Made by a program: the position numbers and the translations under genes. Positions 41 through 38,090 of a stretch of 64,000 nucleotides of DNA are shown piece by piece. Source of the stretch: Pelagomonas calceolata (lineage: Eukaryota); the NCBI GenBank assembly GCA_918797485.1, contig CAKKNE010000005.1, positions 5,022,001 through 5,086,000 of the forward strand, written 5' to 3'. The notes beneath the pieces were generated by a model. That model was not told the origin of the DNA. It was given only the letters and a program-made list of their open reading frames with translations, and did not search any database. How positions within the stretch are numbered: position 1 is the first letter of the stretch; each line of letters starts with the position of its first letter.

Positions 41-157
41 CTAGTGTCTTACAGGCCGCTAGCGATTCCTAAACGCGCCAGAGTCCTGAAAGCCGCGCCC
101 CGGAGCGGTACCCCCTCAACTGCGTTGGAGCTTGCTAGTGCCTTACAGGCCGCTAGC
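41..157 (+). repeat. Composite dispersed element: two GCTAGTGTCTTACAGGCCGCTAGC-type motifs (41-63, 131-157) flanking GCGGTACCCCCTCAA
   Basis: Read directly. The reverse complement aligns with 31982-32120. Confidence 0.8.
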
Positions 158-520
158 TTCCCAAGCTTTTTAACTTGTTTGCAGGCACGGCGCCGCAGAA
201 GCTAAATACCCGCACGTTAGGCAATTTGGGCCCTCCCTCCAATCTCGATGGGGGCACCTCCGTGGCAAGCTAGTGTCGTCGTGTGCTTAGGATCCCCCTG
301 GGACCCAACAGGCCTAGTTTCGGGACCCCTGGGCCTAGTTTCGCCGCGCCCGTCCAAATCACCTGCACTCTTTGCCAGAGTCTTTGGCTCACCCTTGACG
401 GGTTTTCCACCCTACCCTCACCCGCACCCTTCTCCCAGACTGGGCACCCTTCACCCTTACCCTCGACGGGTAAACGCGGGTAAAAGGGTGCCACCCTTGC
501 CCTTTTGCTGCCCTGCGCGC

Positions 521-1189
521 ATGCCGTCGCCACCACGACCCGACGTCGACATCGAGGGCTCCGACGCGGAACTAGAACGGACCATGTGCACGCCGGTCCA
601 GCGCCACGCGCCGGCGCGCGACGCGCCCTGGTCGGCGCCGGGCGCGGTGTTCAGGCCCATCTGCGCGAGCCCGCTCACGCCGCCCAACGCGACGTCGGAG
701 ATCAACCGCCACGCGGCGCGCCACGCGGTCGAGTGCTATGTGGTTTATGGCGCGAAGCTCGCGGCGCGGCGCGGCGGCAAAGGCCCTTTTTCGCCCGGCG
801 CCGCGGCCGTCGCCGCGGCGCGCGCGAAGTGCCGCCTGCTCTGCCGCGAGGCCGGGACGCGCCGCGCGTTACGACGGCAGCTCGTCAAGGCCGTCGACGC
901 GCGGCGCGGCAAGGAGTCGCGCGCCAATGGGCTTCTGAGGGAGCTCCTCTCAGAATTACGGGAGCTGGACGGCATCGGCTCGCCGGAGCCGTGCACGCCG
1001 TTCTCGCCGAAGCGGATGAACTTGCGGGGCGCCGTGCGCGTGCCCCTGCCGCCTTCCGAAATTGATCGAGTTGGCGCCGAATTGAGTGAGATGCGAGGCG
1101 GGCTGTCGCGGCGGGACGTCGGGATCGCGGTCGTCGTCGCCGGGCTCGGGGCATTGACGCTCGCGGCGACGACAGTTTTCGGCGCATAA
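521..1189 (+). CDS. Hypothetical protein with C-terminal hydrophobic (tail-anchor-like) segment
   Basis: ORF 248..1189. GC3-rich coding style begins near ATG 521, and the protein ends VGIAVVVAGLGALTLAATTVFGA. Confidence 0.55.
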   Translation: MPSPPRPDVDIEGSDAELERTMCTPVQRHAPARDAPWSAPGAVFRPICASPLTPPNATSEINRHAARHAVECYVVYGAKLAARRGGKGPFSPGAAAVAAARAKCRLLCREAGTRRALRRQLVKAVDARRGKESRANGLLRELLSELRELDGIGSPEPCTPFSPKRMNLRGAVRVPLPPSEIDRVGAELSEMRGGLSRRDVGIAVVVAGLGALTLAATTVFGA

Positions 1190-1239
1190 CCTTTTTGTTT
1201 TGGTGACCTGTCGCCGCGATGGCGTCGAGGAGTCGCTCG

Positions 1240-1263
1240 GCTAGTGTCTTACAGGCCGCTAGC
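1240..1263 (+). promoter_or_regulatory. Copy of the recurrent intergenic GCTAGTGTCTTAC...GCTAGC motif
   Basis: gctagtgtcttacaggccgctagc, about 270 bp upstream of the BET3 ATG. Confidence 0.6.
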
Positions 1264-1535
1264 TAGCTGTGCGGCGCGCTCATTTTACACGAGGAGCAAT
1301 CGTCGAGCAGCAGTAGTGCTCTCGCGAACGCCATCTATCAGTACTGAAGCCCTGCGCCCCGCCGCAACGACGTCGCGCAGCTAGGCAAGCAGACAGGCAG
1401 ACACAGCCAGCACAAAAGCAGCAAAAAGCAGCATCCTCGTGCCGCGGGCCGGGGTTCCCGCTTGACATCAGCAAAAGGCAGCAAAAGCCTGCGCGAGAAC
1501 CAGGCACCGCTCGACGGCCACAAAAAGCAGCACCC

Positions 1536-2126
1536 ATGGCCCAGCAGACGCCGACCTCCAACAGCGTCAAAGCCTTACGGGCAAGAGGCGACCAGGTCTG
1601 GGCGCGCATGCCGAAATGCAACGCCGAGTTCTTCCGCTTGACGTATGGTGCTTTAGTGGTGCAACTGGTCGAGGACTGCGATGATATCAAAGAAGTGAAC
1701 GACAAACTCCTTTCTATGGGGGTGTCTATCGGTACTCGTATAATAGACGAGTTCCTCGCCAAGAGCAACCAAAGGGAGCCGTGCAAATCCTTCGAGGAGA
1801 CCTGCGAGGTCGTCGGGCGCGTCGCCTTCAAGATGTTTTTAGGGGTCGAGGCCGATGTGAGGAATTGGAACGAGGATAAATCAAGGTGTTCGCTCGTGTT
1901 CCCCGAGAACCCCCTGAACGAGAACGTGGAGCTGCCGCCGGGCAAGAACTTCCTCTACTCAAATATTATTTGCGGCGCGATTCGAGGCGCCTTGGAGCAG
2001 ATCCTCTACAAGGTCGACGTGTACTGCATCAAGGACACGCTGCGGGGCGACGACACGAACGAGATCGGGATCACGTTTGTTTCGAGGCTGCAGGCGGAGA
2101 TGGACGACCAGTACAAGGAGTCGTAA
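1536..2126 (+). CDS. TRAPPC3: TRAPP complex subunit Bet3/TRAPPC3
   Basis: Motifs EFFRLTYGALVVQL, MGVSIGTRIIDEFLAKS, ENPLNENVELP and YSNIICGAIRGALE. Confidence 0.95.
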   Translation: MAQQTPTSNSVKALRARGDQVWARMPKCNAEFFRLTYGALVVQLVEDCDDIKEVNDKLLSMGVSIGTRIIDEFLAKSNQREPCKSFEETCEVVGRVAFKMFLGVEADVRNWNEDKSRCSLVFPENPLNENVELPPGKNFLYSNIICGAIRGALEQILYKVDVYCIKDTLRGDDTNEIGITFVSRLQAEMDDQYKES

Positions 2127-2727
2127 GTATGTTTTTATAGTTGGGTGTTGCGTCGACGGCGCGTCTAGGCGTCGCGTCGATGGCGTAAAGCGTGGGCCCG
2201 TCCGTGCTTGGCGGACGAGGTCCTCGCCTCTCTTGACCCGGCGGCTGGTTGGGAGGCGTTCTTGCCAGCCTGAGGCCCGCGTCGCCGCGGAGGTGGCCGT
2301 CGCGGGCCTTCGCTTGCCCGTCTCAGACCAGAAAGTCCTAGACGAAGTAGAGACGTCGTTCGCAGCCCAGGATCGCTGCGCGAGGGGACGCCACTAGCCT
2401 CCGCCATTTCATGGACCAGCGAGCGAGCTATTGGGAGCGTCGCTTGCACGCTACAGCGTCTAAATACAAAAACGGAGGAGCGGCAGAGCACCGCTGAGGC
2501 CCTGACTTGCAGCGGGCGAACGGACATCGCCTGGCTCGAGCGGTCTGGCGAGCGCGAGCTGCACTTGTAGCCAGCGACCATCTGCAGCTCAGCGAGCGCG
2601 CGCCGCCGCCGCGGCCCGACGGAGAGCTCTCTGCGAGACGCCGCGCGCCACCGACGCTGTCGACGACGCGCCGCCGCGGCCAAGGATTGCCAACGAAACG
2701 CTCGCGTCACACAGGTCGTAAGCCAAG

Positions 2728-4090
2728 ATGGGTAAGACCATCCGCGGCGCCCGTAAGGGCAAGAACTCCATCTTCACGGCGCACACGCGCCTGCGCAAGG
2801 GCCCCGTGCGCCTGCGCAAGATCGACTACGCCGAAAAGTGCGCGGGCCGCGTCCCTCTCTCGCGACTCTTCGACCGACCGATTGGCGCAACGGCAGCGCG
2901 TCAGATTCCAGTCCTGAAGGTTACGTGTTCGAATCACGTATCGGTCACAGCAGCACTGAGCCTCGGTGGTCCGGGGGGTGGACTTCAGTTCCACAGCCGT
3001 TTCGCGACGGAGCGGTTCGATTCCGTCTGGGCTGCGACTGCTGGATTGGTGTAGTGGTTATCACGTCTGCTTTACACGCAGTAGGTCACCGGTTCGAGCC
3101 CGGTATCCAGTAGAGAGCGTCGGAGAGAGCGCGCGAGGGCACGCCGGTCACGCGTTTTTTCCCCACTCGCAGGGAGGGCTACGTCAAGGGCGTCGTGAAG
3201 GCCATCGTCCACGAGTCGGGCCGCGGCGCGCCCATCGCGAAGGTCCAGTTCCAGAATGCGTACCGGTATCAGAGGGATACGGAGCTCTTCGTCGCGGCCG
3301 AGGGCATGCACGAGGGCGCGTTCGTGTACTGCGGCGCCAAGGCGCAGCTGGCGGTCGGCAACGTGCTGCCGCTGAAAGCGATCCCCGAGGGCACGGTCGT
3401 GTGCAACGTCGAGGCCAAGCTCGTGCGCGGGCCGCGTCCGCTTCTCTTCAATCCGACCGATTGGCGCAACGGTAGCGCGTCAGATTCCAGTCCTGAAGGT
3501 TACGTGTTCGAATCACGTATCGGTCACAGCAGCACTGAGCCTCGGTGGTCCGGGGGGTGGACTTCAGTTCCACAGCCGTTTCGCGACGGAGCGGTTCGAT
3601 TCCGTCTGGGCTGCGTTATACACACCATCGTCGAGAGGCGACAAGAGAGCTCCTGGTCACCCGCACGTCCACGCAGGGCGACCGCGGCGCGTTCGCGCGG
3701 TGCTCGGGCGACTACGCCGTCGTCGTGACGCACGACGAGGAGAAGGGCACGACGAAGCTGCGCCTGCCGTCGGGCGGCAAGAAGAGCGTCAAGTCCGTGT
3801 GCCGCGCCATGGTCGGCATCGTCGCGGGCGGCGGCCGCACGGACAAGCCCATGCTCAAGGCGGGCCGGGCATACCACAAGTATCGCGTGAAGCGCAACGA
3901 GTGGCCCAAGGTTAGGGGTGTTGCGATGAACCCCGTGGAGCACCCGCACGGCGGCGGCAACCACCAGCACATTGGTCATCCTTCCACTACTCGTAGAGAT
4001 GATGTTGCGGGCAAGAAGGTCGGTCTGATCGCGGCGCGGCGAACGGGCCGGCTCCGCGGCATCAAGAAGACGGCGGTGGACAAGGACTAG
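2728..4090 (+). CDS. RPL8: 60S ribosomal protein uL2 (L8); exons 2728-2837, 3173-3422, 3677-4090; 257 aa
   Basis: [11 protein letters not shown]..., HESGRGAP and [25 protein letters not shown]. Removing two GT-AG introns restores DYAEK|EGYVKG and EAKL|GDRG. Confidence 0.97.
2876..2947 (+). tRNA. trnW: tRNA-Trp(CCA), copy 1
   Basis: Acceptor stem GACCGAT/ATCGGTC, D arm GCGC-AACGGCA-GCGC, anticodon arm TCAGA-TTCCAGT-CCTGA, T arm ACGTG-TTCGAAT-CACGT; 72 nt. Confidence 0.93.
2950..3036 (+). tRNA. trnU: tRNA-Sec(UCA), copy 1
   Basis: 87 nt with a eukaryote-type 9/4 fold: 6-bp D stem CCTCGG-TGGT-CCGGGG, anticodon arm GTGGA-CTTCAGT-TCCAC, long variable arm CCGTT-TCGC-GACGG, 4-bp T stem GCGG-TTCGATT-CCGT, G discriminator. 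Confidence 0.92.
3040..3112 (+). tRNA. trnV: tRNA-Val(UAC)
   Basis: Acceptor GCTGGAT/ATCCAGT, D arm GGTGTAGTGGTTATCAC, anticodon arm CTGC-TTTACAC-GCAG, T arm ACCGG-TTCGAGC-CCGGT; 73 nt. Confidence 0.93.
3455..3526 (+). tRNA. trnW: tRNA-Trp(CCA), copy 2
   Basis: Identical to copy 1 except one D-loop base (CGGTAGC vs CGGCAGC). Confidence 0.93.
3529..3615 (+). tRNA. trnU: tRNA-Sec(UCA), copy 2
   Basis: Same sequence as 2950-3036. Confidence 0.92.
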
Positions 4091-4197
4091 ACGGCCGCGG
4101 CTAGTTTTTAATTGGGGTTTCTCTTTTACTCTGTAGTAGTACTGGCAGTGTCACACAAGGCGCAAGGGGAGGTGCAGGTGTCTTCACGCGCTTCGCG

Positions 4198-4422
4198 TCA
4201 GTCTGAGGAAAGCAGGGAGTCCCGGCGCGCGAGCCTGCGTCGGTTGCGTCGCGTCGACGGCGTCGCGGCGATGGCGTGCGAATTCCACGCGGGTCTACGA
4301 ACTCCTTGAGCTTCATCATCTGCTCGTCGGCCAACTTATCCATCTCCTCTTGGATCTTCTTCGGGAACGCGTAGGGGCAGGCGCGCGTCGCCTCCATGAC
4401 GCTTACCTTCGTCGCGTGGAAC
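4198..4422 (-). pseudogene. 3' exons of an unidentified minus-strand gene (putative intron 4235-4302); no clear 5' exon
   Basis: Spliced reading gives FHATKVSVMEATRACPYAFPKKIQEEMDKLADEQMMKLKE|LARRDSLLSSD*. An acceptor-like CACGCACAG lies at 4423-4431. Confidence 0.4.
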
Positions 4423-4896
4423 CTGTGCGTGAGTCGAGTGTCGCGGCGATGGCGTGCTGAGGGAATCGACGCGGCGTTTTGGCTGCTTCATCATTACGGG
4501 TGAAGGCGCGCATCGTGCAGACGTCACCAATGGACACGACCAGCGCAGCAACACAGTTGCAGACCGACTATCGATGGGTTTCAACACCTCGTCACGGCCG
4601 CAACGTCTCCCACCAATGCAGGCTGACACTGTTGCTGTTTTGCCAGAGCGATTATTGATGCAATTTGATGGGTTTGACACGGCCTGACGGTCGGTTTCGA
4701 CGATGAGATCAATGATGATGGTGTTGGTCAACGCCCTGACACCTCAGGTTAGCCAGGAACACCCGATCAAAGGCGCTTGCGCAGTTGCGACTCCTGGGAA
4801 AACCCGTGGCGACTCAGGGACGATGTGTCCAGGGGGAGCGGAAGCGCCCAGGAGGGCGCGCGGAGAAGTAAAAAAACACGGATACAGAACGATGAT

Positions 4897-7026
4897 TTAG
4901 GAATACTTCTCCACGTCCAGCCCCACGCCCTCGACGTCGTAGAACGTCTGATCCGAAGGCAGGTAGCCGACCATGGCCCGGTCCAGGCCGGGCAGGACGT
5001 CCGGCGGCACGACCCGGAACCCCATGGCCTCGTACCATTTGACCAATTTCCCGGAGCCGCCGTCGCGCTCGACGAAGAGCATGTACCTGAAATCGAGCGC
5101 GCGGCACGCCCGCATCGCCTCCTTGAAGAGGACCTCGCCGATGTTCCGCCCCCGCGCCGCCGGCTCGACGAAGACGGCGACGCCCGCCGCGACCTTGGCC
5201 GTGCCCCTTCTGGAGTCCCGTTCCACTTTTGTAGAATCGCCGCCGTGGAGAATGGCGGAGAGGGCGTCGTCCGTGCCCGGCGTCGGCTCGTCGGGCAGCC
5301 TCACTAAGTAGTACCCGAGTTCCAGTCCTGTTGATGTGACGGCGGCCGTCCGCAATTCCCCATTCTTGATTGAGGTGGCGACGGTCGCGCGGTCGTTCTG
5401 GGCCGCGCGCGCGAAGGATCGTTGGGTCACGAGGCGCCGACGTCGGCGCCTCTTCCTAAGTTTGGGATAGAGCTGCCGCGGGGCCGCGGAGAGGACCGCC
5501 TCCAACTCGTCGCTCGACGCGGTGGCGACGCCGTCGACGACGTCGAGGCGCGCCGTCTGAATCGCGCTTGCGTCCCGGTAGTCCGCGGGGAGGCGCCGCC
5601 GCCGCGCGAGTGGTCTGCGTGTGAGCTGGTCCGAACTCTACCGGACGGCGAGCGACGAGTCGCGGCGATGGCGTATATGAAGCGGGACGCCGGCCGCGCA
5701 CCGCTTCGGTAAGATGGCGGGGCACCAGGGCCCGCGGACGTCGCCCGAGTCGACGTAGAACTTCGTGCCCGAGCCCCTATCTTTTATGGTACGTACCTGG
5801 CCGTCGAAGTCTCCATAAAAACGCGTCGCCAGGCCGTAGGGCGGCAGGCGTTTTTGTAGAGCGTAGGCCGCGCCGTCTGATGTGGTAGCGATCGTGAGAG
5901 GGCCGTGTTTTGTCGAGACGCATCTTAACGCACCGGGCTCCGGTAGTTGATTGGATTCGCAGACCTCGACGCGCCTTGCGAGCTTCGGCGCCGCCTCCAC
6001 TTCCACTAGATCCGCGTCGTCGCCGAGCCACGGTCTTATGGAGTGGGCGAAGGCGTCTCCCACCTTCGTCGAGTAGCCCCCTTCCAGGCCCAGCACGACG
6101 GGGACGCCTAAAGTTTCAGCGGCATCTTTTGTAGCGCGCCCTATTCGTACATAATCCTGGGGTCGCAGGCGGCACTGCGCCAGCGGGTCCTCGAGCAGCG
6201 CATCGAAGCCCGCGCTCACTACTAGTAACCCATTGCTTCCTGAAACACGATCTGCCACAAACTTCAGACAGCGGTCCCAAGCGCCGCAGAACTCGACGGC
6301 GTCGGCGCCTCTTTTCACACACGCATTCAATCGATTGCCCAGTAAACCTTGGTCGGAAGGGTCATCACCCGTGTTCGGCCAGAGCGGCGCCTGGTGCGCC
6401 GACGCGTACATTACTCGAGCTTCCTCGTCGGCGTACGCGGCGACGCCGTTGCCGTGATGGACATCAAAATCCAGCAAAGCCACCCAGTCCTTGCCGAGGA
6501 CGTCGAGGGCGTAGGCGGCCGCGCCCGCCGCGAAGTTGTACAAGCAGAAGCCGTCGGCCACGTGCCGCGACGCGTGGTGGCCGGGTGGACGCGAGAGCGC
6601 CACCGCCAATTCATTTTGGATAGAAGCGTGGTCCACGGCGTCGAGCCACAGCGATTGGGCCCGCAGCATCGTCTGATGCGATCCCCGTTTCGCGTACGTG
6701 TCGACCGCTAGTCGCGTGCGCCCGAAGCGGTAGAACTTTGACGCTTTTTTCACTCGTGAAATATGCTGGTTTGAGTGTACGCGTCGGACCGACTCTTCAG
6801 CGTCTGTCCTCGCTTGTTTGAGGTACTGCCAGGTCGCGTCGGTCTTTTCGAGCGCTCGCCGGCAGTCGTCGACGCGGCGCGGCGTCTCGGGGTGGCCCTT
6901 GGCGTTGCTGTGCGTCGCGTGTCTGGGGTCGTAGAAGATCTTGACGCCGCTTGGATGCAATGCGTTTACTCCGCCCGAATGCAGGGCGACGCTGTGCACC
7001 AATGCGCAGCGCCAGAGCAGCCTCAT
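4897..7026 (-). CDS. Putative fusion: N-terminal targeting-like peptide + HDAC-family deacetylase + Rieske-like domain + GNAT acetyltransferase (about 680 aa; intron 5615-5701)
   Basis: HDAC motifs RPPGHHA, GFCLYN, DFDVHHGNG, SAGFDA and LEGGY. GNAT motifs VFVEPAARGRNIGEVL and LVKWYEAMGF. The two ORFs share a frame and are joined by an 87-nt GT-AG intron. Confidence 0.75.
5615..5701 (-). other. Spliceosomal intron (87 nt), related in sequence to intron 46363-46424
   Basis: GTGCGCGGCCGGCGTCC...ATACGCCATCGCCGCGACTC...CTCACACGCAG; it contains the only in-frame stop between the two ORFs. Confidence 0.8.
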
Positions 7027-7177
7027 TGCAGCCCGGCGCAGTGCTGCCCAGTGCCACAAAACGAGCGCAGCTCTCCTATAGCTTTGTGCAGCGTGGAAAG
7101 GAGCTGCGTTGCGTGACGTGACTAACGATACCGATGCAGGGCGCAGTGCCAGGGCACTTGCACCGTCTGCACTCGCT

Positions 7178-7203
7178 GCTAGCGTGCTGTAAGACACTAG
7201 CAA
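7178..7203 (-). promoter_or_regulatory. Copy of the recurrent intergenic motif
   Basis: Reverse complement is ttgctagtgtcttacagcacgctagc, about 150 bp upstream of ATG 7026. Confidence 0.6.
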
Positions 7204-7319
7204 ACAATGTAGTTTTGGGCTTGTGGCGCAAACCTGTACCGATCCTGATTGAAAAGGTGCGCACCCCACCGCGCGCTGATCGCTGCAAGAGGGGGTGTAG
7301 GTAAAACTATACTGTGGTC

Positions 7320-7810
7320 TTAGGCATCGCGGCGACTACGTGCAGGCAGTACATCAGTGAAAAGTTTTCCCCTTGCCAGCCCCAGTGTCTGTCGGACTGC
7401 TGGTATCTTCGGGTGCGATGGCCCTAGTACCCTAAGTGCAGTCCGCTCGAGCTTCTCCAGCACCGCCACGGCCAGACGTAGCTCTTCCAGTGAGGGGGCG
7501 GGCTTATAGACGAGCGCCTGGGCGTAAGAATAACGGAGGCCCAGTGTAATATCGTCCTCTTCTCCCAAAAGTTTTCGGCTTTTGGGGAGCATCTCCGTGC
7601 ACAACGCTCTGGCTTCGGAGTAAAGATCAATCCCAGGGGCGATGAGAGCGGAGGCCAATTGCAAGGCCGAATGCAACAAGTCACGCTTAGCCCGATCATC
7701 AGTTTTCTCGATGGTCTTGAGGGTAGCATAGACCTCTCGATGTATCGCGAGAGACTCTTCGTGCCGCCCAAGTTTAGATAAAGCCGCCCGACAGCAGGCA
7801 GCATCCTCAC
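7320..7810 (-). pseudogene. 5'-truncated fragment of a TPR-like (kinesin-light-chain-type repeat) protein
   Basis: LGRHEESLAIHREVY...SRKLLGEEDDITLGLR...RVLGPSHP; no plausible start codon or promoter space. Confidence 0.55.
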
Positions 7811-8194
7811 GACTACGCCGGGAACGCCGGCGACATGGACTACATCTGCGAGTGTTGGTTGGGGCCGGTGCCGCCCACGCCGTCACCGACAACGCCGGAG
7901 CCCACGACGCCCGCCCCTACTAACGATTGCACGGACGGCGTCGAGGGCTACAGCAACGAGTGCTCGGCCGACTGCTCGTCGACGACCCCGGGAACTTGCC
8001 GGTATTACATACGCAACGCCGACTGGGGCGAGGAGCGGACGTGCTCGCACTGGTGCGGGAGCCAAGGCCTCACCTGTCACGCCATGTACGACGACAGCGG
8101 CAACAGTTGCTGCAATTACAAAGGCAACAAACTTAGTTGCGACTACACCGGGGACTCCAGTGACATGGATTTCATCTGCGAGTGTTGGCCATGA
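7811..8194 (+). pseudogene. 5'-truncated fragment of a Cys-rich repeat (probably extracellular) protein
   Basis: Begins mid-repeat with DYAGNAGDMDYICECW, has a PTPSPT linker, and ends DYTGDSSDMDFICECWP*. Confidence 0.5.
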
Positions 8195-8248
8195 ATTTCC
8201 CCCCCTCCTACTCTGGGCTAGAATAACAAGGTTCTAGACAACATCAAC

Positions 8249-11470: not shown

Positions 11471-11706
11471 GGTGATCTAGGCTGTTGGCGTGTGTCGCGG
11501 GCCTACGGGTGCGGCGACGGCGTCCCCGAGCACAAGTTGCACAGCGGCACTCAGGTGGTTAGGCAGCACGTGGGTGCAACGGTGGCGTGTCGCAGCGCAG
11601 GGATGTGTTCACAAGGAGGCTGCACCAATGTTGCACGGCCTGCGGTTGCACAGGTGCGGTCTGTGCGGCGTGGGGAGCGCTGCAAGTACTCCACGCATGA
11701 GCCCAT

Positions 11707-11732
11707 TTGCTAGTGTCTTACATGCCGCTAGC
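11707..11732 (+). promoter_or_regulatory. Copy of the recurrent intergenic motif
   Basis: ttgctagtgtcttacatgccgctagc, about 240 bp upstream of ATG 11470 (minus-strand gene). Confidence 0.6.
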
Positions 11733-11910
11733 GCGACGCCTGCAGTGAAAGAGCGGCTCGCGCCCGCCGCCGATGAATCGGCGACGCGCGGTGTCTCCCC
11801 CCAGGGGCTCCGCCCACTAGTCCTAGCACCGTAACATCGACTACGCCTGCAGTACGCCTTCGCCGCAGCGACGTTCGAGCTGAAGAAAATATGTATAAAA
11901 TTACGCAGAA

Positions 11911-16560: not shown

Positions 16561-16586
16561 GCTAGCGGCTGTAAGACACTAGCAAG
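16561..16586 (-). promoter_or_regulatory. Copy of the recurrent intergenic motif in a divergent promoter
   Basis: Reverse complement is cttgctagtgtcttacagccgctagc. Confidence 0.6.
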
Positions 16587-25268: not shown

Positions 25269-25564
25269 GGTGGCGGGTGCTCCCGGCTAGGCCGGGCTCT
25301 GGGGGAGATAGGCTTGGGTGCTGCCCGCTGCGCGTCGCGTGCAGCCCGGTGGTCCGGTTCGGCGGGAGAAGTCGTTAAATAGCTGCCTCGCGGGCCCTGC
25401 TCCTCTCGCGGCGGCGCGCGGCCCGCCTTAGTGCGCTGAGGGCCAAGTTTGCTTGCCGCGTTAGGCTAGTAGGGCCTCTCCCCGGCGTGCTTTGCGGCCG
25501 CCTTCGAGCCCTCGGCGTGCGTGCGCATACCTCTAGTCCCCCGAGGAAAGCTCTGGGGAAAGGT

Positions 25565-25590
25565 GCTAGCGGCTCTAAGACACTAGCAAG
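25565..25590 (-). promoter_or_regulatory. Copy of the recurrent intergenic motif in a divergent promoter
   Basis: Reverse complement is cttgctagtgtcttagagccgctagc. Confidence 0.6.
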
Positions 25591-25785
25591 CACTGAGAGG
25601 AGAAGAGGGGGACGAGCGCTACGTGCGCTGCGCGCGCACGGCTGGTGTAGCCTCAGAGCAGCAGCGACTCGTGCTGGACGCAACGCCGCGCCCGAGCGCT
25701 GGCTTGTGCGACCGCTAAGTCTCAGTTTCTTGCAGCCAAGCAGACGCCGCGCGCGGCGGCGCAGCGGTGCGCAGCCCAAGAAACG

Positions 25786-28257: not shown

Positions 28258-28340
28258 TAAGTATTGTGTGACCTTGTTGTTGGGCTGCGGCGACGCATTC
28301 GGCACCGAACTCTCCAGCGAAGCCACCAAAGCGCGTTTAT

Positions 28341-28361
28341 AAGTGTGTTTCAACCGCTAGC
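28341..28361 (+). promoter_or_regulatory. Degenerate copy of the recurrent intergenic motif
   Basis: aagtgtgtttcaaccgctagc matches tagtgtcttacagccgctagc at 17/21 positions; upstream of the F-box gene. Confidence 0.35.
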
Positions 28362-28535
28362 TCGAAAAATATTGCAGAGGTCGAGAATTAGGTCGAGCAG
28401 GTAGAGCGCCACCCTGCGCGCACACAATTATATTGCTTGGCCTTTACAGACCGGCCTGCGAGCGCTGCGCGATCCAGTTTCTCCCAGCTCTTGGCACCGT
28501 AACACCAGTGACTGCTGCACAACCAGGGCGCAGTG

Positions 28536-29885: not shown

Positions 29886-30043
29886 CTAGCTGCTTTTTAA
29901 TCCAGTAAGTATGTGCAATGTACGTATTGTTACGGTGCTAGGCAATGCCAGGAAATAGCTAGTAGGTCTGTGACAATAGCAGACTGAGCTCCAGCAGGCA
30001 CCTGCTGCATAGTTACACGCTTGCTCGGATCAATGCCAGTGTC

Positions 30044-31174
30044 ATGAGTGCACAAGAGAGCAGCACCAAGATAAGACACGCTGAAAAACGCCGCAACAGC
30101 ACTTGCGCACTGGCAGACGCAATAGCACAGGCAGCATTGGACGCCTGGCGGAGCCTCGACGTGCGCACGAGTCGCCAGACCGTCGTCGCGGCGATCGTGC
30201 TGCACCACCAAGAAAAATGCACGTGTTTGTCGCTCGGCGCGGGGACGAAGACGCCGTCGCGCGCCGCCGTCGTCGCGGGCGGCGACGGCGCGCTGCGCGA
30301 CTGCCACGCAGAGGTGCTGGCCGTGCGCGCGTTCCGGCGCTACCTCTACGCCGCGCTTCAAAGCAATGGATGCGCCGCGTTCGAGAAGACCGCGGCCGGC
30401 GTGCGCCTGCGACCCGGCGCCGCGCTCTTCCTCTACTGCTCGTCGGCGCCCTGCGGCAACAGCACGATTAGGAGGTGGGCGAAGACGACGCGCGAGGTCT
30501 TCCGGCCCGAGCTCGGCGCCGGGCCGCCGCCGGAGCGCCACGCGCCGTTCAAGGCGCTGACACCGGCCCAGGTGGCACTGCTGGGCAAGCGGCGGCCCGA
30601 CGACGCCGCAGCGGTGGACAACGTGCCGCCGGGCTGCGCGCCCCTCGACGGCGACGCGCTGCGGCCGCACTGCTGCTCGGACAAGGTGGCGCGCTGGTGC
30701 GCCGTGGGTTTAGAGGGTGCGTTCCTGTCGCGCGTCGTCGAGGGCGCGGCGCTCGCGGGGATCGTGGTCGGCCGAAAATACTGCTTCGAGCACGCGCGGC
30801 GGGCGTTTTGCTGTCGCGTGCCGCATTTACAGAGGCACCCGGCGCTCATGGGGACGGGGCTCCTGCTGGACGAGGGCGTCTACGTCGACAACGACGGGGC
30901 CGACTTCCGCGACCGACGCTGCTACGCGTGGTGCCGCGGCGACGCGCACGCGGAGGAGCTCGACGGGAGCGCGGGGGCCACGACAAGCGGCGCGCCGTCG
31001 ACGCTCTGCCGCGCCGCCTTCTTGGAGCGCTACCGGGCGCTCGTGCGCGACGCGCCGGCGTCGTACGGTGACGCGAAGCGGGCCGCCGCGTCGGAGGCGT
31101 TCGCGGCGGCGGATCGGGCGCTGCGCTTTTCTGCGGGGGCGCCGTTTTCGGCTTGGTTGGCTAGTAATGTGTGA
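30044..31174 (+). CDS. Adenosine deaminase/editase domain protein (ADAT1/ADAR-type, no dsRBD)
   Basis: LGAGTK, DCHAEVLA, SAPCG and CSDKVARW motifs. Confidence 0.88.
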   Translation: MSAQESSTKIRHAEKRRNSTCALADAIAQAALDAWRSLDVRTSRQTVVAAIVLHHQEKCTCLSLGAGTKTPSRAAVVAGGDGALRDCHAEVLAVRAFRRYLYAALQSNGCAAFEKTAAGVRLRPGAALFLYCSSAPCGNSTIRRWAKTTREVFRPELGAGPPPERHAPFKALTPAQVALLGKRRPDDAAAVDNVPPGCAPLDGDALRPHCCSDKVARWCAVGLEGAFLSRVVEGAALAGIVVGRKYCFEHARRAFCCRVPHLQRHPALMGTGLLLDEGVYVDNDGADFRDRRCYAWCRGDAHAEELDGSAGATTSGAPSTLCRAAFLERYRALVRDAPASYGDAKRAAASEAFAAADRALRFSAGAPFSAWLASNV

Positions 31175-31182
31175 TTTGTGTC

Positions 31183-31854
31183 TTACTGTGACTCGTCCAC
31201 GCCGGCGACGACGTCGAAGTCGAGCGCGGAGGCCTCGACGAGGACGGAGCCGTCCAAGTCCGGATCTTTGTGATCCATCGCGTTCGGGTGGAGCGCCTTC
31301 GCGAGCATCTTTGTGGCCCAGACCTTGACATCTGGCGGATTTTCCCCAAAGCTCAGCTCGCCGACGCGACGGAGGCGCGACCCGCTCCGTGTCTCCACCA
31401 CGCCGTCGGCCGAGATGATCAGGGTTATCTCCTCGTCGTCGCTGACGATGTCTATCGACCCGATCGTCAGCTTGAGTCCAAGCTCCCTGGCCACCTCGCC
31501 TCGGCGCGAGACTGCTGGGCCCCTCAGCGAGAACTGTCGCGCCTCGCCTCGCACGAAAATGTCGCTCTCTGCGAGTAGCAATGGGGTATCGTGCCTCATT
31601 TCCCCGTCGAATTGTCGCGCAACCAATAGCACGCGCGACGACTGCCGGCCGTTAGTTTTATTCGTCGAACGCGCGGCGTAGAAGCCACTGTGCGTGCTCC
31701 GCAGCAGCAAGCCGCGTCGAATCGGCGCCTGGACTGGATCCTCGTCGACGTCGAAGACGTGGGGCTCTGGCAGCTTTGGCTTTACGTCTGCCGGCGGCTC
31801 TTCGGTCAAATCTACGCAGGAATCGGAGTCACTGTCGTCGTGGGGCCGCTTCAT
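31183..31854 (-). CDS. Hypothetical protein
   Basis: 223-aa ATG-initiated ORF filling the gap between neighbours. Confidence 0.55.
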   Translation of the reverse strand: MKRPHDDSDSDSCVDLTEEPPADVKPKLPEPHVFDVDEDPVQAPIRRGLLLRSTHSGFYAARSTNKTNGRQSSRVLLVARQFDGEMRHDTPLLLAESDIFVRGEARQFSLRGPAVSRRGEVARELGLKLTIGSIDIVSDDEEITLIISADGVVETRSGSRLRRVGELSFGENPPDVKVWATKMLAKALHPNAMDHKDPDLDGSVLVEASALDFDVVAGVDESQ

Positions 31855-31981
31855 ACTGCTGCCAGATGGGCTGCCACACTATCTGTGAGGAGCCTTAGTG
31901 GCGTCCAGTCCAGTTTTGCGTGCGAGAGCGCGCTCTCCTCCGGGTCGGGAACAAGTCAAGGCAAGGCGCAACTCGGGGCCA

Positions 31982-32120
31982 GCTAGCGTCAGATAAAGAC
32001 ACTAGGAATGCGCAGGTGATTTGTCAGTTCGGCAATGAGCCAATTTGAGGGGGTACCGCCCCGGGTTGCGACTTTTAGTCGTCGCCATAGACCGGGCTAG
32101 CGGTGTAAGACACTAGCAAG
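31982..32120 (-). repeat. Second composite element (motif - TTGAGGGGGTACCGC - motif), inverted relative to 41-157
   Basis: Motifs at 31982-32005 (degenerate) and 32096-32120, with core ttgagggggtaccgccccgggttgcgacttttag. Confidence 0.75.
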
Positions 32121-32180
32121 CGAGGCGTGAGAGCTCTCGCCGCTGTATGCGCTGCAAGAGCTGCTATAAATTCATCTAGT

Positions 32181-32245
32181 CATCGTCTTAACACCAGCAT
32201 TGCAAAGGCACAGCATCGTCTAACACCAGCATTGCAAAGGCACAG
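32181..32245 (+). repeat. Tandem ~33-bp duplication directly before ATG 32247
   Basis: catcgtct(t)aacaccagcattgcaaaggcacag x2; TATAAA at 32165. Confidence 0.85.
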
Positions 32246-32246
32246 C

Positions 32247-33654
32247 ATGGCTGCTGCGCCAGCAGCACCGCTACCTCCCAGCATGGCTGCACCACAACCC
32301 GCAGCCGTCTCCGTAGTGCTGCCGGTCTATAACGCAATGCCCTACCTCACGGTAGCCATACGAGACATTTTACGTCAGGAAGTCGAGGGTGGCCTCGAGT
32401 TGATCTGTGCGTGGGACGGCGGCGACGTGGATGCGTGGGAGTTTCTGGTCGAGGTCGCGCAGCGGTGCGGCCGCGTCGAGGTCGTCGACGCGCCGGCGCC
32501 GCCGACGTCCTCAAAACCGAGCGCAACAAGTGACGTCCCGGCCTGGGCGCCGTCCCAGAACCCGGCCCGCAGCGCGGCACCGCGCCACGACGAAGACGCG
32601 GACCACCCGGCTGTTGAAAAGTCGCCGTGCGAACCGCTGAGTGCGGACGCCGTCGCCGCGGCGCGTCAAGCGAATAACACGCTGCGCGCCGTGAAATACC
32701 GGGACGGTCTCAACAGAGGCCAGGGCGCGGCCATGTCGCTCGCGCTGGCGCGGTCGACGGCGCCGCTGATCGCTCAGATGGAGGCCGACGATAGAAGACC
32801 CAACCCAAGGGCCTTCGCCCTCATGGTCGACGCGCTGCGAGCCAACGGGTGGGACGGCTGCTGCTCCGACGCGCGGCCGTTCGGGGCGACGGGCCGGATG
32901 AGAGCCTACTGCGACTGGCAGAATAGTTTGACGCGGCCGGCGGAGCTCGCGTCCAATCGGTTCGTGGAGATCCCCGCGCTCCACCAGACGGGCGTGTTCA
33001 CGCGGGCGGCCGTCGACGCCGTGCTGAACGCGACGGGGGGCTGCTACCGCGACGGCCCGGCGCCGCCCTTTGCGCAGGACGGCGCCGTCGGATCTACGTT
33101 GGACGTGCCCGTGGACCTCTGGTGGTGGCTCGAGTTCTTCGCCCGGGGCCTCACGTGCGGCCGCGTGCGGTCGCCGCCTGTGTGGAAATCAGCCAGTGCG
33201 GTCGCGTCGATGGCGTGGGGCTACTGAAATCTGATTTCCACACAGGTCGCCGCCCGCCACCGACGAAGAGCTACCAGAGACGGCACTCTTCGGCTGGCGC
33301 CAGCACCCGCGCCAGAAGACGCGCGTCCACGGGCGCCTCTCGCTGGAAAACCTGCGGGCCATCAAGCTCGACGCGTTCCTGCGGTCTTACGCGCCACGGC
33401 GCGTCATCGTCGTCTCCGTCGGCCGGACCCTCGAGGCCTGGGCCGCGGGGTTGCGGGCCCACGCGCGCGCGCCCGAGGCCGTCGAGGCCGTCGAGTGGCG
33501 GCCGTCGAAGCGCCAGCACGCCGAGGACTGCCCGCCCCAAATTCTCTCGAAGGACTGCGTGCGGGCCTTCGCCTACGGCGACGCGAGGGCTAGGCAGCGC
33601 GTCCGCCTCCGCGTGCCCGACTGGGACGACGCGAGGGATACGTTCGTCGCTTAA
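32247..33654 (+). CDS. Glycosyltransferase family 2 protein (B3GNTL1/QTGAL-like); intron 33170-33245; 443 aa
   Basis: VSVVLPVYNAMPYL, IAQMEADD and VPVDLWWW; splicing continues into LFGWRQHP...DTFVA*. Confidence 0.82.
33178..33245 (+). mobile_element. Introner-type TIR element, short 68-bp copy with perfect TSD GTCGCCGC
   Basis: TIR CTGTGTGGAAATCAG...CTGATTTCCACACAG; TSD at 33170-33177 and 33246-33253. Confidence 0.93.
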
Positions 33655-33661
33655 ATTGTAT

Positions 33662-33943
33662 TTATGTGGTCCGCAGCGGCGGCGACACGAGGATGAGCGC
33701 GTCGCCGCGGACAAAAAGCATCTCGATCTGCCGCTTCGACGTGCGGATGATCTCCTCCTCCGTCTCCTGGTCGACCTCCTGCGTCGTCACCGTCTCCTCG
33801 ACGTCGCCGAGCACCATGTTCAGGTGGTTATCGTACGCGTGGAGCTTGCCCCGCAGTTCCCTATCTCCCTGGCATTTCACGTAGATGCGCTCGTCGATGG
33901 AAAGCCGGATGAGGTCCAACGGTTCTCGGCACTCGCTGGACAT
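33662..33943 (-). CDS. LSM3: Sm-like protein LSm3
   Basis: [44 protein letters not shown]...MLFVRGD. Confidence 0.96.
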
Positions 33944-34429
33944 TTCTGCGCAGCGATTTATTGCTTTGGGTGCTTACTGCTGTTTGAGATCGTGGCGCCT
34001 CTGCGTGCAGCGAGAGCTGACTGGTGGGTGCACTGCGGGGCTGGTAGGCGTGTCAGAACGAGTGATGCGCAGCTATGGCGCTGTTAAACTGCAAAAAACA
34101 GCACAGGCGCGGGCAGGGGAAACCCGTTTTTTTCGCTTTTTGCGCTGCGCACAGATTCTTAGGAAACGGCGCCCCTGATCTTTCTTCCGGACGGAAATGA
34201 AGAGGATTAGTACTGGAAACTACGTCTAATCCGGGCAATGTTCGTGAGAGCATGAGTGCGTTGAGCCAAGCTCTGCGGCGTCCGCACGCCCTCTAAAAAG
34301 ACGTCAGCGTTTAAGGACCGCACGAAACGACCATCTGGCGCCTAAGGGCAGCATCGTGCGAAGAAACCGCGAGCTCGACGCCTACAGGACACCAAAAACA
34401 GCACCAAAGAGAGCCCAGCTGACAACAAT

Positions 34430-35557
34430 ATGGCCGCGGCCGAGGTCGACGTCCTCCAGCTCGCGGACCGGCCCTGGGCCGAGATCTCGGCCATCCGGCT
34501 GACCGCGACGCCCGCGCCGCTCCCGCCGCCGCCTCTACCGGAGGACGACTCGGTCCAGTGCGACTTCCGGACTTTGCTCTTCGTGCATGACGGCCCCGTG
34601 CCGCCCTTCGCCGACTGTGATATAAGGGGGCGGCCGGCGCACCGCGTCTTCACGCAAGGCGTGCGGCGGCCCGGCGCGCTGCCCGCGGCCTACGGCCGGC
34701 GCGGCGCCGCGAGTAGAGCCGGCGCGCGCGAAAAGGTCCTGGACGCCCTGCATACGACGCTTTTTACGGACACGACCGTGCGGTACGGCGCCGCGAAAAT
34801 CAAGGCGCACCGCTGCATTCTCCACGCGCAGTCGCCCTTTTGTCGGGCGGCGCTGCAGTTCGCTCCACAAAACGGCGTCGACCTGCCCTTCTGCGGGGCC
34901 GCGCTGGAGAATCACCTTAGGAGGCTGGTGGCATATCTCTACACGCGCGACGGCCGCGAGCTTGAGGAACTCCTCGACGCGTGCTACCTCGACGACGACG
35001 AGAGTGGTGATGAGCCCGCCGCCGTGACAGTTGCGCGCGTCGCGGACGCGCTGCTGCTGGACGACCTGCGGAAGGCGGCTCTAGATAGGCTCGTCCGCTG
35101 CGTCGACCTCGCCAGTGCTGCCTCTCTATTAGGTGTCGCGCGGGACCTGACCGACGACCGCCTGCGACGGGCCTGCCTCGAGGAGATCGTCCGGCGGGGC
35201 CCGGACGCGTGCCGCCGCGCCGCGGGGGCCGACGTCTTCGACGCCTCGCTGCCGCCGGCCACGCACGCGGGCCTGCGGCGCCTGGCGGCCCTCGCGGCGT
35301 CGAACCCGGTCTGCTGCGGCGCGGCGCTGCCCGACGCGCGGGAGGCGCTCGCGATGCTCCGCGAGGCCCTCGACGACCAGGCCGAGCGCCTCGCCGACGC
35401 GGACGAGCGCCAGCGCCTCGAGGCCGACGCGCCGTCGGCGGCGCACGTCCTCGCGAACATCGAGCGGCAGCGGGCCCACGTGGCCTTCCTCCGGGACTTC
35501 ATCGTGAAGCAGGAGTCGGAGTTCGTGGCGGGCGACCGGTGGACGCTCGGCGTCTAG
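34430..35557 (+). CDS. BTB/POZ domain protein
   Basis: FTDTTVRYGAAKIKAHRCILHAQSPF...LVAYLYT. Confidence 0.82.
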   Translation: MAAAEVDVLQLADRPWAEISAIRLTATPAPLPPPPLPEDDSVQCDFRTLLFVHDGPVPPFADCDIRGRPAHRVFTQGVRRPGALPAAYGRRGAASRAGAREKVLDALHTTLFTDTTVRYGAAKIKAHRCILHAQSPFCRAALQFAPQNGVDLPFCGAALENHLRRLVAYLYTRDGRELEELLDACYLDDDESGDEPAAVTVARVADALLLDDLRKAALDRLVRCVDLASAASLLGVARDLTDDRLRRACLEEIVRRGPDACRRAAGADVFDASLPPATHAGLRRLAALAASNPVCCGAALPDAREALAMLREALDDQAERLADADERQRLEADAPSAAHVLANIERQRAHVAFLRDFIVKQESEFVAGDRWTLGV

Positions 35558-35626
35558 GTTCTCTCCCATTTTCTCTAAGACAAAGTACACGAAGCATAAT
35601 TAGAGGGGGAAAGGAAGACGCGAGCA

Positions 35627-37900
35627 CTACTTGCGCTTCTTCGCCGCCGGCTTGGAAGAGGAGGACTCCGCCGACCGCTTCTTCTCGAGCGCTCGAGCCG
35701 CGGCCTCGTGCGCCTGCTTGAGCGACACGAAGCCCTCGTCGCCGTCCGCGAAGCGAACTTCGTAGCCGAACTGCTCGACGGACCGGACGACGCCGTCATG
35801 GTAGCCGTCCATGCACGAGACGCCGACGAGGCGCGCGCCGACCGCGAGCCGCCCGACGTGGCGCCGCGGCTGGCGACCCTCGTCCAGGTTCATCGGGACG
35901 AGCTCGGAGGGCTTCACCGACTTGGTCATGCCCTCGTGCCAGTTCACGAAGGTCACGTCGACCTTGCGCCGGCCGACCGACACGACCTTGACGATGACCT
36001 TGTCGTCGGCTTTCAACGTGCAGAGGTCGCCGCGGTGGAGCAGGCCCAGAATGCGCGGGCCGTCGGGATCGACGTCGTCGTCGTCGTCGCTCGAGTCGTC
36101 CTGGCCCCAGAGGAAGACCTCCACTAAATCAGCAGCCTTCCAGCCGTGCTCCTTGGCCGCCTCGACCGCCTTGTCGGGCGAAGGCGTCAGCCGCGGCGAG
36201 TCGGACAGCGCGGCCGCGACCGTCTCCTGGATGCTGAACCGCAGCTTCCGCTGGAAGCGGCGCACCATGAGCTTCGCGAGGCTCCGCTGCTTCGACTCCG
36301 ACGACAAAGTCTCGAGCTCGGCGCGCCGCGCGGACTCCAATCGAATCGTGCCGCTGCTGCCCGCCAGCGCGAGCGCGCCCTCGAGGTACTTCGTGAGTTG
36401 CACGGTGGACCGCACGAAGTCCTGGTGCTGCGAGTAGTTCTTGCCCACCAGGTCGTAATAACAGGGGTAGGTGATGGGGACGCTGACGTCGTAGTACCAC
36501 TTGCCAGGATACGTCGGGCCGCACTTGAACCCGTAGCGCGTCAACGGCCCGCGGAGCTCCATGAGCGACTTGTCCTGGATCGCCGCGAGCAGCTCGCGGA
36601 AGTCGCCCTGCCACGAGGGCGCCGCCGGCGCGGCGGGCTGCGCGGCCGGCTGCGCGGCCGGCTGGCGCGCCCGCGGCGACCGCGAGCGGCGCGGCGCCGG
36701 AGCGGCGGCCGGCTGGCGCGCGCGCGGCGACCGCGAGCGGCGCGGCGCCGGAGCGGCGGGCGACTGGCGCGCGCGCGGCGACCGCGACCGGCGCGGCGCC
36801 GGCGCGGCGGGCTGGCGCGGCCGGGGCGACCGCGACCGGCGCGGCGACCGGCGCGGCGCGTCCTCGTCCTCGTCGTCGGAGGCCGGCGGCGACGGCGGCG
36901 GCGCGGCGTCGTCGTCGTCCGAAGCTTGCGGCGGCGGGGCGTCCGGCAGCTCCTCCTCGTCCGCGGGCGCGGGCGCGGGCGCGGCGACGGGCGTCGCCGG
37001 CGCGGCGGGCGACGGCGCGGCGGCGACGGGCGTCACGGGCGCGGCGTTGTTGGCCGGCGTCGCGGGCGCGGCGTTGGCGGCCGCGGCGCGGGCGGCCTTC
37101 TCCTTGACGAAGGCCTTGCGGAAGCGGCTCCACGAGAGCGGCTTGAGCGTGCTGGCGCTGCACTCGCGCTCGAGGTCCTCGACCGACGTGGCGAAGAGCT
37201 CGGGCACGTCGTTGGCGATGGCGAGGACGCGCTCGCGGACGGGACCCTGGCACTGGACCTCGTCGAGCCACGCCGTCAGTAGCGCCGAGGGCCGCGGGCC
37301 CGCCGCTGGTGGCGGCGGCAGGAGGGCCGGCAGGGCACCCGCCGGCGGCGGCGGCAGCAGCGCGGGCAGGGCGCGCGGCGGCGCCGCGAGGGGCGGTGGC
37401 GGCGGCAGGAGCGCGAGGTGGCGCGGCGCCGCGTTCGCGCGCTTGGCGATGACCGCCGACTCGATGTTGTTCAGGTGGCCGCGCTTGGCGCCGGCGTTCT
37501 CGAGCGCGGCGCGCAGGTCCCGCGCGAGGTCGTCGCGGAGGTTCTGCACGTCCTCCTCGTCGTCGACGCCGAGGTCCTCGAAGATCGAGGCGTACTTCTC
37601 CCCGTAGCCCGGCTTGACCTCGTCGAGCCACGTGGAGATGTCTTTCGGCGCGGCCCGAGGCAGAGGCGGCGGCGGCGGAGCTAGATGTTGCGCCGGCGCC
37701 GCGGCGAGCATGGCTTGTTGGTCCGGCGCCGCGCCGAGCATGCCTTGTTGCGCCGGCGCCGCCATGAGCATGGGGTAGGCCCGCGGCGCCATGGGAGGAT
37801 AGGCGCCGTAGGCGGCGTAGGGCCCGAGCGCGGGCTGAAATCCCGCGGCGCCGGGCCACTGCGCGCCCTGTTGCTGCGGCGCGCCCCAGTTCTGCTCCAT
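35627..37900 (-). CDS. Protein with SAM-like domains, RSRSPR repeats and C-terminal Tudor/KOW-like domains
   Basis: WLDEVKPGYGEKYASIFEDLGVD; RRSRSPRARQ repeats; DGYHDGVV...YEVRFADGDEG. Confidence 0.7.
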   Translation of the reverse strand: MEQNWGAPQQQGAQWPGAAGFQPALGPYAAYGAYPPMAPRAYPMLMAAPAQQGMLGAAPDQQAMLAAAPAQHLAPPPPPLPRAAPKDISTWLDEVKPGYGEKYASIFEDLGVDDEEDVQNLRDDLARDLRAALENAGAKRGHLNNIESAVIAKRANAAPRHLALLPPPPPLAAPPRALPALLPPPPAGALPALLPPPPAAGPRPSALLTAWLDEVQCQGPVRERVLAIANDVPELFATSVEDLERECSASTLKPLSWSRFRKAFVKEKAARAAAANAAPATPANNAAPVTPVAAAPSPAAPATPVAAPAPAPADEEELPDAPPPQASDDDDAAPPPSPPASDDEDEDAPRRSPRRSRSPRPRQPAAPAPRRSRSPRARQSPAAPAPRRSRSPRARQPAAAPAPRRSRSPRARQPAAQPAAQPAAPAAPSWQGDFRELLAAIQDKSLMELRGPLTRYGFKCGPTYPGKWYYDVSVPITYPCYYDLVGKNYSQHQDFVRSTVQLTKYLEGALALAGSSGTIRLESARRAELETLSSESKQRSLAKLMVRRFQRKLRFSIQETVAAALSDSPRLTPSPDKAVEAAKEHGWKAADLVEVFLWGQDDSSDDDDDVDPDGPRILGLLHRGDLCTLKADDKVIVKVVSVGRRKVDVTFVNWHEGMTKSVKPSELVPMNLDEGRQPRRHVGRLAVGARLVGVSCMDGYHDGVVRSVEQFGYEVRFADGDEGFVSLKQAHEAAARALEKKRSAESSSSKPAAKKRK

Positions 37901-38063
37901 TTAAGTTTAAGGCTTTGGGGAGAGCGCTTTTTTGTAGAGCGCTTCTGCGAGGCTGTAGTGCAAGAATGGGCTTGATAGGGCTGCGCCCAGCGAAAACAGC
38001 TTCGTATCGCTGCTGTGAAGCACTGTGAAGCACGATTAGCGCGCGCGCGGGCGTCGAGCTAGG

Positions 38064-38090
38064 CTTGCTAGTGTCTTACGGGACGCTAGC
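38064..38090 (+). promoter_or_regulatory. Copy of the recurrent intergenic motif in a divergent promoter
   Basis: cttgctagtgtcttacgggacgctagc. Confidence 0.6.

What the first reader, a model, noticed from the sequence alone, without database searches (positions are those of the whole stretch)
41..38090. A ~25-bp motif recurring about 11 times, only in 5' intergenic regions
Seen: consensus (CTT)GCTAGTGTCTTACAG(G)CCGCTAGC at 41, 131, 1240, 7178(-), 11707, 16561(-), 25565(-), 31982(-), 32096(-) and 38064, plus a degenerate copy at 28341. All lie about 130-480 bp upstream of an ATG, often in the middle of divergent promoters. I saw none in CDS or convergent gaps. GCTAG half-sites and TGTCTTA are conserved while the spacer varies. 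Inference: it is too long for a typical single TF site and too short for a transposon. Candidates are a lineage-specific general promoter or nucleosome-excluding element, a replication-origin mark, or a domesticated transposon end.
Basis: partly seen in the sequence, partly recalled or inferred. Interest (0 to 1): 0.7.

Follow-up and report, generated by a model that had tools for sequence, protein, structure and literature searches.

The report
Long promoter motif in ocean alga
A 24-letter DNA motif sits about 200 bases before many genes of one of the ocean's most abundant algae and was not found inside protein-coding sequence; it is likely the docking site of a promoter-binding protein, probably spread through the genome by an old jumping element.

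Summary
The window, inferred to be a Pelagomonas calceolata chromosome, holds 10 near-perfect copies of (GCTT)GCTAGTGTCTTA-N3-6-CGCTAGC and one decayed copy; shuffles give none. A capped metagenome scan gave 122 further stretches.

Of 141 copies, none lies in predicted coding DNA. Of 130 gene ends beside them, 99 are 5' ends. Where both neighbours are known, 21 gaps are divergent, 19 tandem and 1 convergent. The motif works in either orientation, a median 200 bp from the ATG, and lies 126-137 bp upstream of the one mapped transcript 5' end.

It is kept at one orthologous promoter and inverted in place at another. The arms stay fixed while the spacer takes indels, and there is no hairpin covariation. 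It is not universal: RPL8 and LSm3 lack it. 22 of 141 copies share longer flanks between unrelated loci, which points to spread by a dispersed repeat.

Best reading: a protein-bound, orientation-independent promoter element, probably co-opted from a repeat (analogues: CERP2/CELE2-HIM-17, ZNF143). Binding and function are untested. I found no description of it in the literature searched.

The parts
41..63 (+). motif copy, followed by tail C; 458 bp before ATG 521
63..126 (+). tail C: dispersed repeat segment found only just 3' of motif copies
   Evidence: E 1e-13; member of the training set
134..157 (+). motif copy (1 mismatch), second of a pair flanking tail C
1240..1263 (+). motif copy, 273 bp before BET3/TRAPP ATG 1536
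7178..7201 (-). motif copy, 152 bp before histone deacetylase ATG 7026
11709..11732 (+). motif copy, 240 bp before M16 peptidase ATG 11470 (opposite strand); inverted relative to head B compared with L056
11744..11836 (-). head B: about 90-nt dispersed repeat with a fixed 5' start and an internal hairpin, usually just 5' of a motif
16561..16583 (-). motif copy in divergent gap (226 and 195 bp to ATGs 16335 and 16777)
25565..25587 (-). motif copy in divergent gap; 126-137 bp upstream of RNA 5' ends at 25428 and 25439
28340..28361 (+). decayed motif copy (17.2 bits), 175 bp before ATG 28536
28491..28504 (-). head-B-like start (2 mismatches), about 130 bp from the decayed copy
29928..29941 (+). 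head-B start without a motif, before the adenosine-deaminase gene 30044
31982..32005 (-). motif copy (1 mismatch, 6-nt spacer) in divergent gap, 128 bp to ATG 31854
32013..32088 (-). tail C between the two copies of this promoter
   Evidence: E 4e-15; member of the training set
32096..32117 (-). motif copy (3-nt spacer), 131 bp to ATG 32247; only 0-4 RNA reads per run carry the window's own letters here
38067..38090 (+). motif copy in divergent gap (168 and 181 bp to ATGs 37900 and 38271)

Best explanation
The motif is a two-part DNA element that lies upstream of transcription starts in either orientation and is likely bound, as double-stranded DNA, by a sequence-specific promoter factor that would help open or position the promoter of roughly a fifth to a third of genes. 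Shown: the sequence, its exclusion from predicted coding DNA, its 5' bias, its orientation independence, its place upstream of one mapped 5' end, and fixed arms with an indel-tolerant spacer. Inferred: two binding modules (left about 15 bp, right 7 bp) read by one flexible multi-domain protein or by two proteins; purifying selection on the arms; about 2,400-5,000 copies per genome. Inferred, more weakly: it was spread as part of an old small dispersed repeat (heads B, tails C), whose flanks have eroded at most sites while the bound core was kept.
For: Position: 0 of 141 copies in predicted CDS although 59% of the 291,704 bases examined are coding; 99 of 130 adjacent gene ends are 5' (p 2e-9); 21 divergent, 19 tandem, 1 convergent of 41 (p 5e-5); 54 vs 45 by orientation (p 0.42). 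In the Pfam-confirmed subset, 35 of 46 ends are 5' (my hand count; p 5e-4). Distance to 5' ends is tighter than to 3' ends (10-90%: 101-345 bp, n=93, vs 67-662 bp, n=31; Levene p 2e-4). RNA 5' ends lie 126-137 bp from the 25565 copy. Conservation: orthologous promoter L071/L110 keeps both arms with a 2-nt spacer indel amid 60-71% identical flanks. 111 of 141 copies have no flank similarity yet near-perfect arms, and window scores are bimodal, unlike evenly eroding debris. No covariation: 147-467 of 500 shuffles reach the observed values, and the T-G 'pair' and loop letters are fixed, which fits base readout. Repeat origin: downstream-flank pairs scoring 35 or more, 16 vs 0 in the reverse-complement control; upstream 9 vs 0; tail C found 7 times, each just 3' of a motif, in non-orthologous loci.
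Against: No binding, chromatin or reporter data. Only one motif promoter has a mapped 5' end, from 4 runs of one sample. RNA depth does not track the motif: LSm3 (75-124) lacks it and gene 25786 (0-2) has it. Most locus copies were fetched by exact match, so arm conservation is partly built in; only 19-23 copies are unselected. 52 of 141 copies had no gene assigned on either side, and gene calls come from my own window-trained model. A promoter-targeting transposon would give the same positional pattern. In-place inversions (L014/L035; window 11709 vs L056) and indels in 45 of 141 spacers are unusual for one rigid binding site. Central position in divergent gaps (15 of 18) is not significant (KS p 0.06). 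The tail C profile was built from the 7 copies it finds.
Confidence: 0.57

Rival explanations
1. A functionless remnant, terminus or excision footprint of a transposon that inserts into open promoters. The two CTAG words would be a target duplication around a short, indel-rich junction.
For: 22 of 141 copies share flanks between unrelated loci. The element reads as the palindrome GCTAGC opened by an insert. Indels are confined to the spacer. The only convergent-gap copy (L010) still carries tail C.
Against: The arms survive where flanks are unrecognisable and at an orthologous promoter. There is no continuum of decayed copies (1 weak to 10 strong). The upstream TT bias (97-99 of 125) is one-sided and turns with the motif, unlike a palindromic target.
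Confidence: 0.18
2. A still-mobile mini-element: the 24-28 bp unit (perhaps a Helitron2-like 5' end) is itself copied into promoters in either orientation and sometimes drags variable neighbouring DNA with it.
For: Same position but opposite orientation at the orthologous pinin-family promoter L014/L035 and next to head B. In the tail C, L022/L044 and L024/L067 groups the shared sequence lies 3' of the motif while upstream flanks are unrelated. T-rich left flank and a possible 7-bp terminal stem resemble Helitron2 ends (PMC3627910 passages).
Against: The hairpin is no stronger than shuffles (z between -1.8 and +1.0) and shows no covariation. Tails start 2-50 nt after the motif, not flush with it. 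No transposase or empty site was seen. The inversions can also arise by template switching between the arms.
Confidence: 0.12
3. A replication-origin or chromosome-architecture mark (for example a nucleosome-phasing boundary) that shares promoter space without acting on transcription.
For: Orientation-independent, intergenic, functionally unrelated neighbours, no link to RNA depth, mild A/T-tract enrichment beside it.
Against: One copy per 6-13 kb is denser than origins usually are (own knowledge). Distance is tied to 5' ends more tightly than to 3' ends.
Confidence: 0.1
4. An RNA-level signal (5' UTR element, splice acceptor, small RNA or hairpin).
For: TTACAG resembles an acceptor, and a few reads from other loci carry a motif.
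Against: Either orientation; the AG is lost in many copies; it lies upstream of the mapped 5' end; 0-4 native reads per run over the 32096 copy; no Rfam match among the 5 hits, all tRNAs; no covariation.
Confidence: 0.03

Closest known systems
C. elegans m1m2 motif pairs from the CERP2/CELE2 MITEs, bound by HIM-17 (PMC9757741; abstract and Results part 1 of 2 read)
   Same: A two-part motif at many promoters, with some copies still inside a longer repeat; proposed co-option.
   Different: There thousands of copies lie in closed non-promoter MITEs with terminal inverted repeats, and binding and function are shown. Here almost all assigned copies are beside a 5' end, no inverted-repeat element was found, and no factor is known. 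No shared sequence is claimed.
ZNF143/Staf binding site (PMC3082894; abstract and outline only)
   Same: A promoter-proximal site over-represented at divergent gene pairs and acting in both directions.
   Different: Vertebrate zinc-finger factor; different sequence (recalled); here the spacer varies from 3 to 6 nt and there are repeat-like flanks.
Yeast general regulatory factors Abf1, Rap1, Reb1 and fission-yeast Sap1 (recalled, no call)
   Same: Bipartite or flexible sites at a subset of unrelated promoters, upstream of the start.
   Different: Those sites are shorter and more degenerate; this one scores up to about 45 bits and could hardly arise thousands of times by point mutation.
Helitron2 termini (PMC3627910; passages)
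   Same: T-rich left flank, potential terminal stem, variable adjoining sequence; head B has a fixed 5' start and a 3' hairpin.
   Different: No supported hairpin, no matching 3' asymmetric repeat or RepHel gene was found, and the unit is about 25 bp.

Membership tests
Promoter-proximal factor site (general-regulatory-factor or ZNF143-like) | enriched upstream of gene 5' ends, absent from CDS | tested here: met
Promoter-proximal factor site (general-regulatory-factor or ZNF143-like) | orientation-independent, enriched in divergent gaps | tested here: met
   54 vs 45; 21 of 41 divergent
Promoter-proximal factor site (general-regulatory-factor or ZNF143-like) | lies upstream of the transcription start, not in the RNA | tested here: inconclusive
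   met for the one mapped 5' end and for coverage of one more copy; one sample
Promoter-proximal factor site (general-regulatory-factor or ZNF143-like) | conserved at orthologous promoters | tested here: inconclusive
   kept in L071/L110, inverted in L014/L035; both pairs were found by exact match
Promoter-proximal factor site (general-regulatory-factor or ZNF143-like) | bound by a protein; needed for open chromatin or expression | not testable with these tools
   no chromatin or binding data
Universal core-promoter element | present at most promoters, fixed orientation | tested here: not met
   7 of 20 non-convergent gaps in the window; absent at RPL8 and LSm3; either orientation
MITE-derived promoter (CERP2/CELE2 type) | motif also found inside longer dispersed repeats | tested here: met
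   22 of 141 copies
MITE-derived promoter (CERP2/CELE2 type) | parent element with terminal inverted repeats, target duplication and many non-promoter copies | tested here: inconclusive
   no such ends seen in about 290 kb; 1 of 41 copies in a convergent gap; whole genome not held
Helitron2 end | 5' terminal hairpin kept by compensatory change | tested here: not met
Helitron2 end | 3' asymmetric repeat plus 3' hairpin; RepHel source element | tested here: inconclusive
   no such partner seen in the window lists; genome not available
Replication origin | initiation or ORC binding at the site | not testable with these tools
   density argues against it
Structured RNA | transcribed, strand-specific, covarying | tested here: not met

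The most novel reading that the evidence does not exclude
The 24-28 bp unit is a self-propagating promoter cassette: a minimal element that is copied into, and flips within, promoters, sometimes carrying adjacent promoter DNA to new genes (L022/L044 share the motif plus about 120 bp before unrelated genes), and that the host now depends on at thousands of promoters.
Probability: 0.12. Interest if true: 0.87.

Novelty: new variant of a known kind. Interest (0 to 1): 0.58.

Why it matters
Promoter grammar is, to my knowledge, almost unknown in pelagophytes, although P. calceolata is among the most abundant ocean eukaryotes (section heading in 10.1101/2021.10.25.465678). A long motif at an estimated 2,400-5,000 promoters gives a direct bait for finding its binding factor, a part for bidirectional expression vectors, and a landmark for gene starts in metagenomes. 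If the repeat origin holds, it is a stramenopile case of large-scale promoter co-option.

Tried and rejected
No whole genome was held and the metagenome records behind my loci were not searchable, so genome-wide counts are extrapolated. RNA was obtained only for 24,800-34,600; the copies at 41-16,583 and 38,067 have no read evidence.

Viral contigs gave 2 hits in 42% and 51% GC DNA with no alga-like genes, treated as chance. GTDB genomes gave 91 stretches in 596 Gb (80 listed), one match per genome in the 10 genomes searched whole. Of the 11 stretches scoring above 28 bits, seven look like algal DNA mis-assembled at contig ends or short algal contigs (L125, L136, L161, L166, L171, L183, L197; my reading); the others look like chance. 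None was added to the counts.

Hairpin, splice-site and Rfam readings failed. Window 25565/L001 and window 7178/L046 are not orthologous. L058/L119 and L095/L116 were dropped from the shared-flank count as another repeat and chance; duplicates L030 and L117 were dropped before all counts.

Spacer type does not predict flank similarity. The excess similarity of immediate flanks (2.5x upstream, 1.9x downstream) fades by 40-60 bp, but its null ignores dinucleotide bias, so I give it little weight. A solo-LTR reading (head B starts TGTTA) lacks target duplications and a common end. Four look-ups of earlier findings returned nothing.
Full report
Organism. The window is 63-65% GC, gene-dense eukaryotic DNA. 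BET3 has pelagophyte best named hits. Six of the 10 window proteins looked up lie on a 5,288,731-bp contig, and a protein named Pelagomonas calceolata lies on a contig of the same length. I infer P. calceolata.

Observation. All 11 sites are confirmed. Ten have 0-1 mismatch in CTAGTGTCTTA-N3-6-CGCTAGC; 40 shuffles gave none at 2 or fewer. A matrix trained on 130 off-window copies gives ten hits at 28.6-44.9 bits, one at 17.2 bits (0.03 per shuffled window above 15 bits) and no other independent hit.

Spread. Three of 10 neighbouring proteins looked up had a named P. calceolata member among those listed, and L079 has pelagophyte best named hits. Beyond 400 bp from the anchoring match there are 11 copies in 145,397 bp, one per 13 kb, against one per 6.4 kb in the window. 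With a genome of about 32 Mb (recalled) this gives 2,400-5,000 copies. Prokaryote and viral hits are chance or mis-assembled algal DNA. Other pelagophyte genera could not be tested.

Position. With a window-trained coding model, 0 of 141 copies fall in coding DNA, which covers 59% of 291,704 bases. 52 copies had no gene assigned, mostly on short loci. Of 130 assigned sides, 99 are 5' ends; of 41 fully assigned gaps, 21 are divergent, 19 tandem and 1 convergent; orientation is 54 vs 45. In the Pfam-confirmed subset of the 108 segments scanned, 35 of 46 ends are 5' (hand count), and the genes share no function. Median distance to the ATG is 200 bp and tighter than to 3' ends.

RNA. Four stranded poly(A) runs of one sample were laid on 24,800-34,600. 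The gene at 25268 has 5' ends at 25428 and 25439, 126-137 bp from its motif. The 32096 copy has 0-4 reads per run with the window's own letters. The LSm3/34430 divergent promoter (5' ends 34083-34100 and 34269-34296) has no motif and is strongly used; gene 25786 has the motif and is weak. The motif is therefore upstream DNA, not universal, and not a predictor of level.

Anatomy. The left module is (GCTT)GCTAGTGTCTTA(CA) and the right is CGCTAGC(T). The spacer is 5 nt in 96 of 141 copies, 4 in 27, 3 in 11 and 6 in 7. The arms could form a 7-bp stem, but 7 copies fold no better than shuffles (z -1.8 to +1.0), and 23 unselected copies show no covariation. Fixed letters in the loop and at the T-G position fit base readout on duplex DNA.

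Evolution. L071/L110 share both flanking genes' ends and keep the arms with a spacer indel. L014/L035, a pinin-family gene in two lineages about 90% identical in protein, carry the motif at the same distance but inverted, including its TT flank. 111 of 141 copies have unique flanks. 30 fall into 9 groups: 2 orthologous pairs, 2 spurious pairs, and 22 copies that share sequence between unrelated loci. Tail C follows a motif in 7 of 7 hits, and in 3 of them a second motif follows it. Head B precedes a motif in 5 loci copies and faces an inverted one at window 11709, but B starts also occur 545 bp away (L039) or alone (29928). L022/L044 share the motif plus about 120 bp before unrelated genes. 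The single convergent copy carries tail C and telomere-like repeats.

Mechanism. A motif this long cannot plausibly arise thousands of times by point mutation, so it was probably copied; the shared flanks show copying for a minority. Neutral debris should erode core and flank alike, whereas here near-perfect cores sit in unique flanks. The simplest account is a protein-bound promoter element retained from an old dispersed repeat (0.57). Rivals: neutral remnant or footprint (0.18), active mini-element (0.12), origin or architecture mark (0.10), RNA signal (0.03). Binding, chromatin effect and function are inferred, not shown.

Literature. In the genome preprint (10.1101/2021.10.25.465678, passages) 'motif' and 'promoter' occur 0 times; its supplements were not seen and may list these repeats. 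Searching the motif letters returned 31 papers, of which the 30 listed are unrelated by title and abstract start. Pelagophyte promoter or chromatin searches showed nothing relevant in their listings. The library lacks most subscription journals. Analogues: PMC9757741 (abstract, Results part 1 of 2), PMC3082894 (abstract, outline), PMC3627910 (passages); the yeast factors are recalled.

Verdict. Real, apparently undescribed, and a new variant of a known kind (long promoter element, probably co-opted from a repeat). Interest 0.58.

Noticed in passing
window 2876-3113 and 3455-3615: tRNA clusters inside the two introns of the ribosomal protein L8 gene (2728-4090; name from my reading of the translation): Trp-Sec-Val in the first and a duplicated Trp-Sec in the second.
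   Followed up: partly
window 44293-44497, 46963-47166(-), 50868-51017(-), 33169-33245; L018, L019, L064, L002: A family of about 200-nt repeats ending in an AG acceptor, probably introner elements; the 76-nt member is spliced GT..AG in RNA reads. The genome preprint reports 956 putative introners near 210 bp.
   Followed up: partly
window 11744-11836(-); L031, L039, L052, L056: Head B has a fixed 5' start, tandem truncated copies and a 9-bp hairpin near its 3' end; it may be a small Helitron-like element in its own right.
   Followed up: partly
window 380-500; L010:2821-2839: Degenerate telomere-like CCCTAA repeats downstream of two tail-C copies.
   Followed up: partly
window 48764-48782 and 40191-40213: Two intergenic GCTAG..GCTAGC pairs with other spacers; they score below 6 bits and may be decayed relatives or chance.
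   Followed up: partly
L125, L166, L171, L197 (GTDB records): Prokaryotic bins whose contig ends look like pelagophyte genes with the motif in their promoters, probably assembly chimeras.
   Followed up: partly
L014, L016, L023, L054, L056: Another 110-140 nt dispersed repeat shared by five loci.
   Followed up: no
window 55132-64000: An open frame of at least 2,955 codons for a coiled-coil-rich protein that runs off the window.
   Followed up: no
window 27729-27826: ARAGORN tRNA-Leu call inside an ankyrin coding region, not found by Rfam; probably false.
   Followed up: partly
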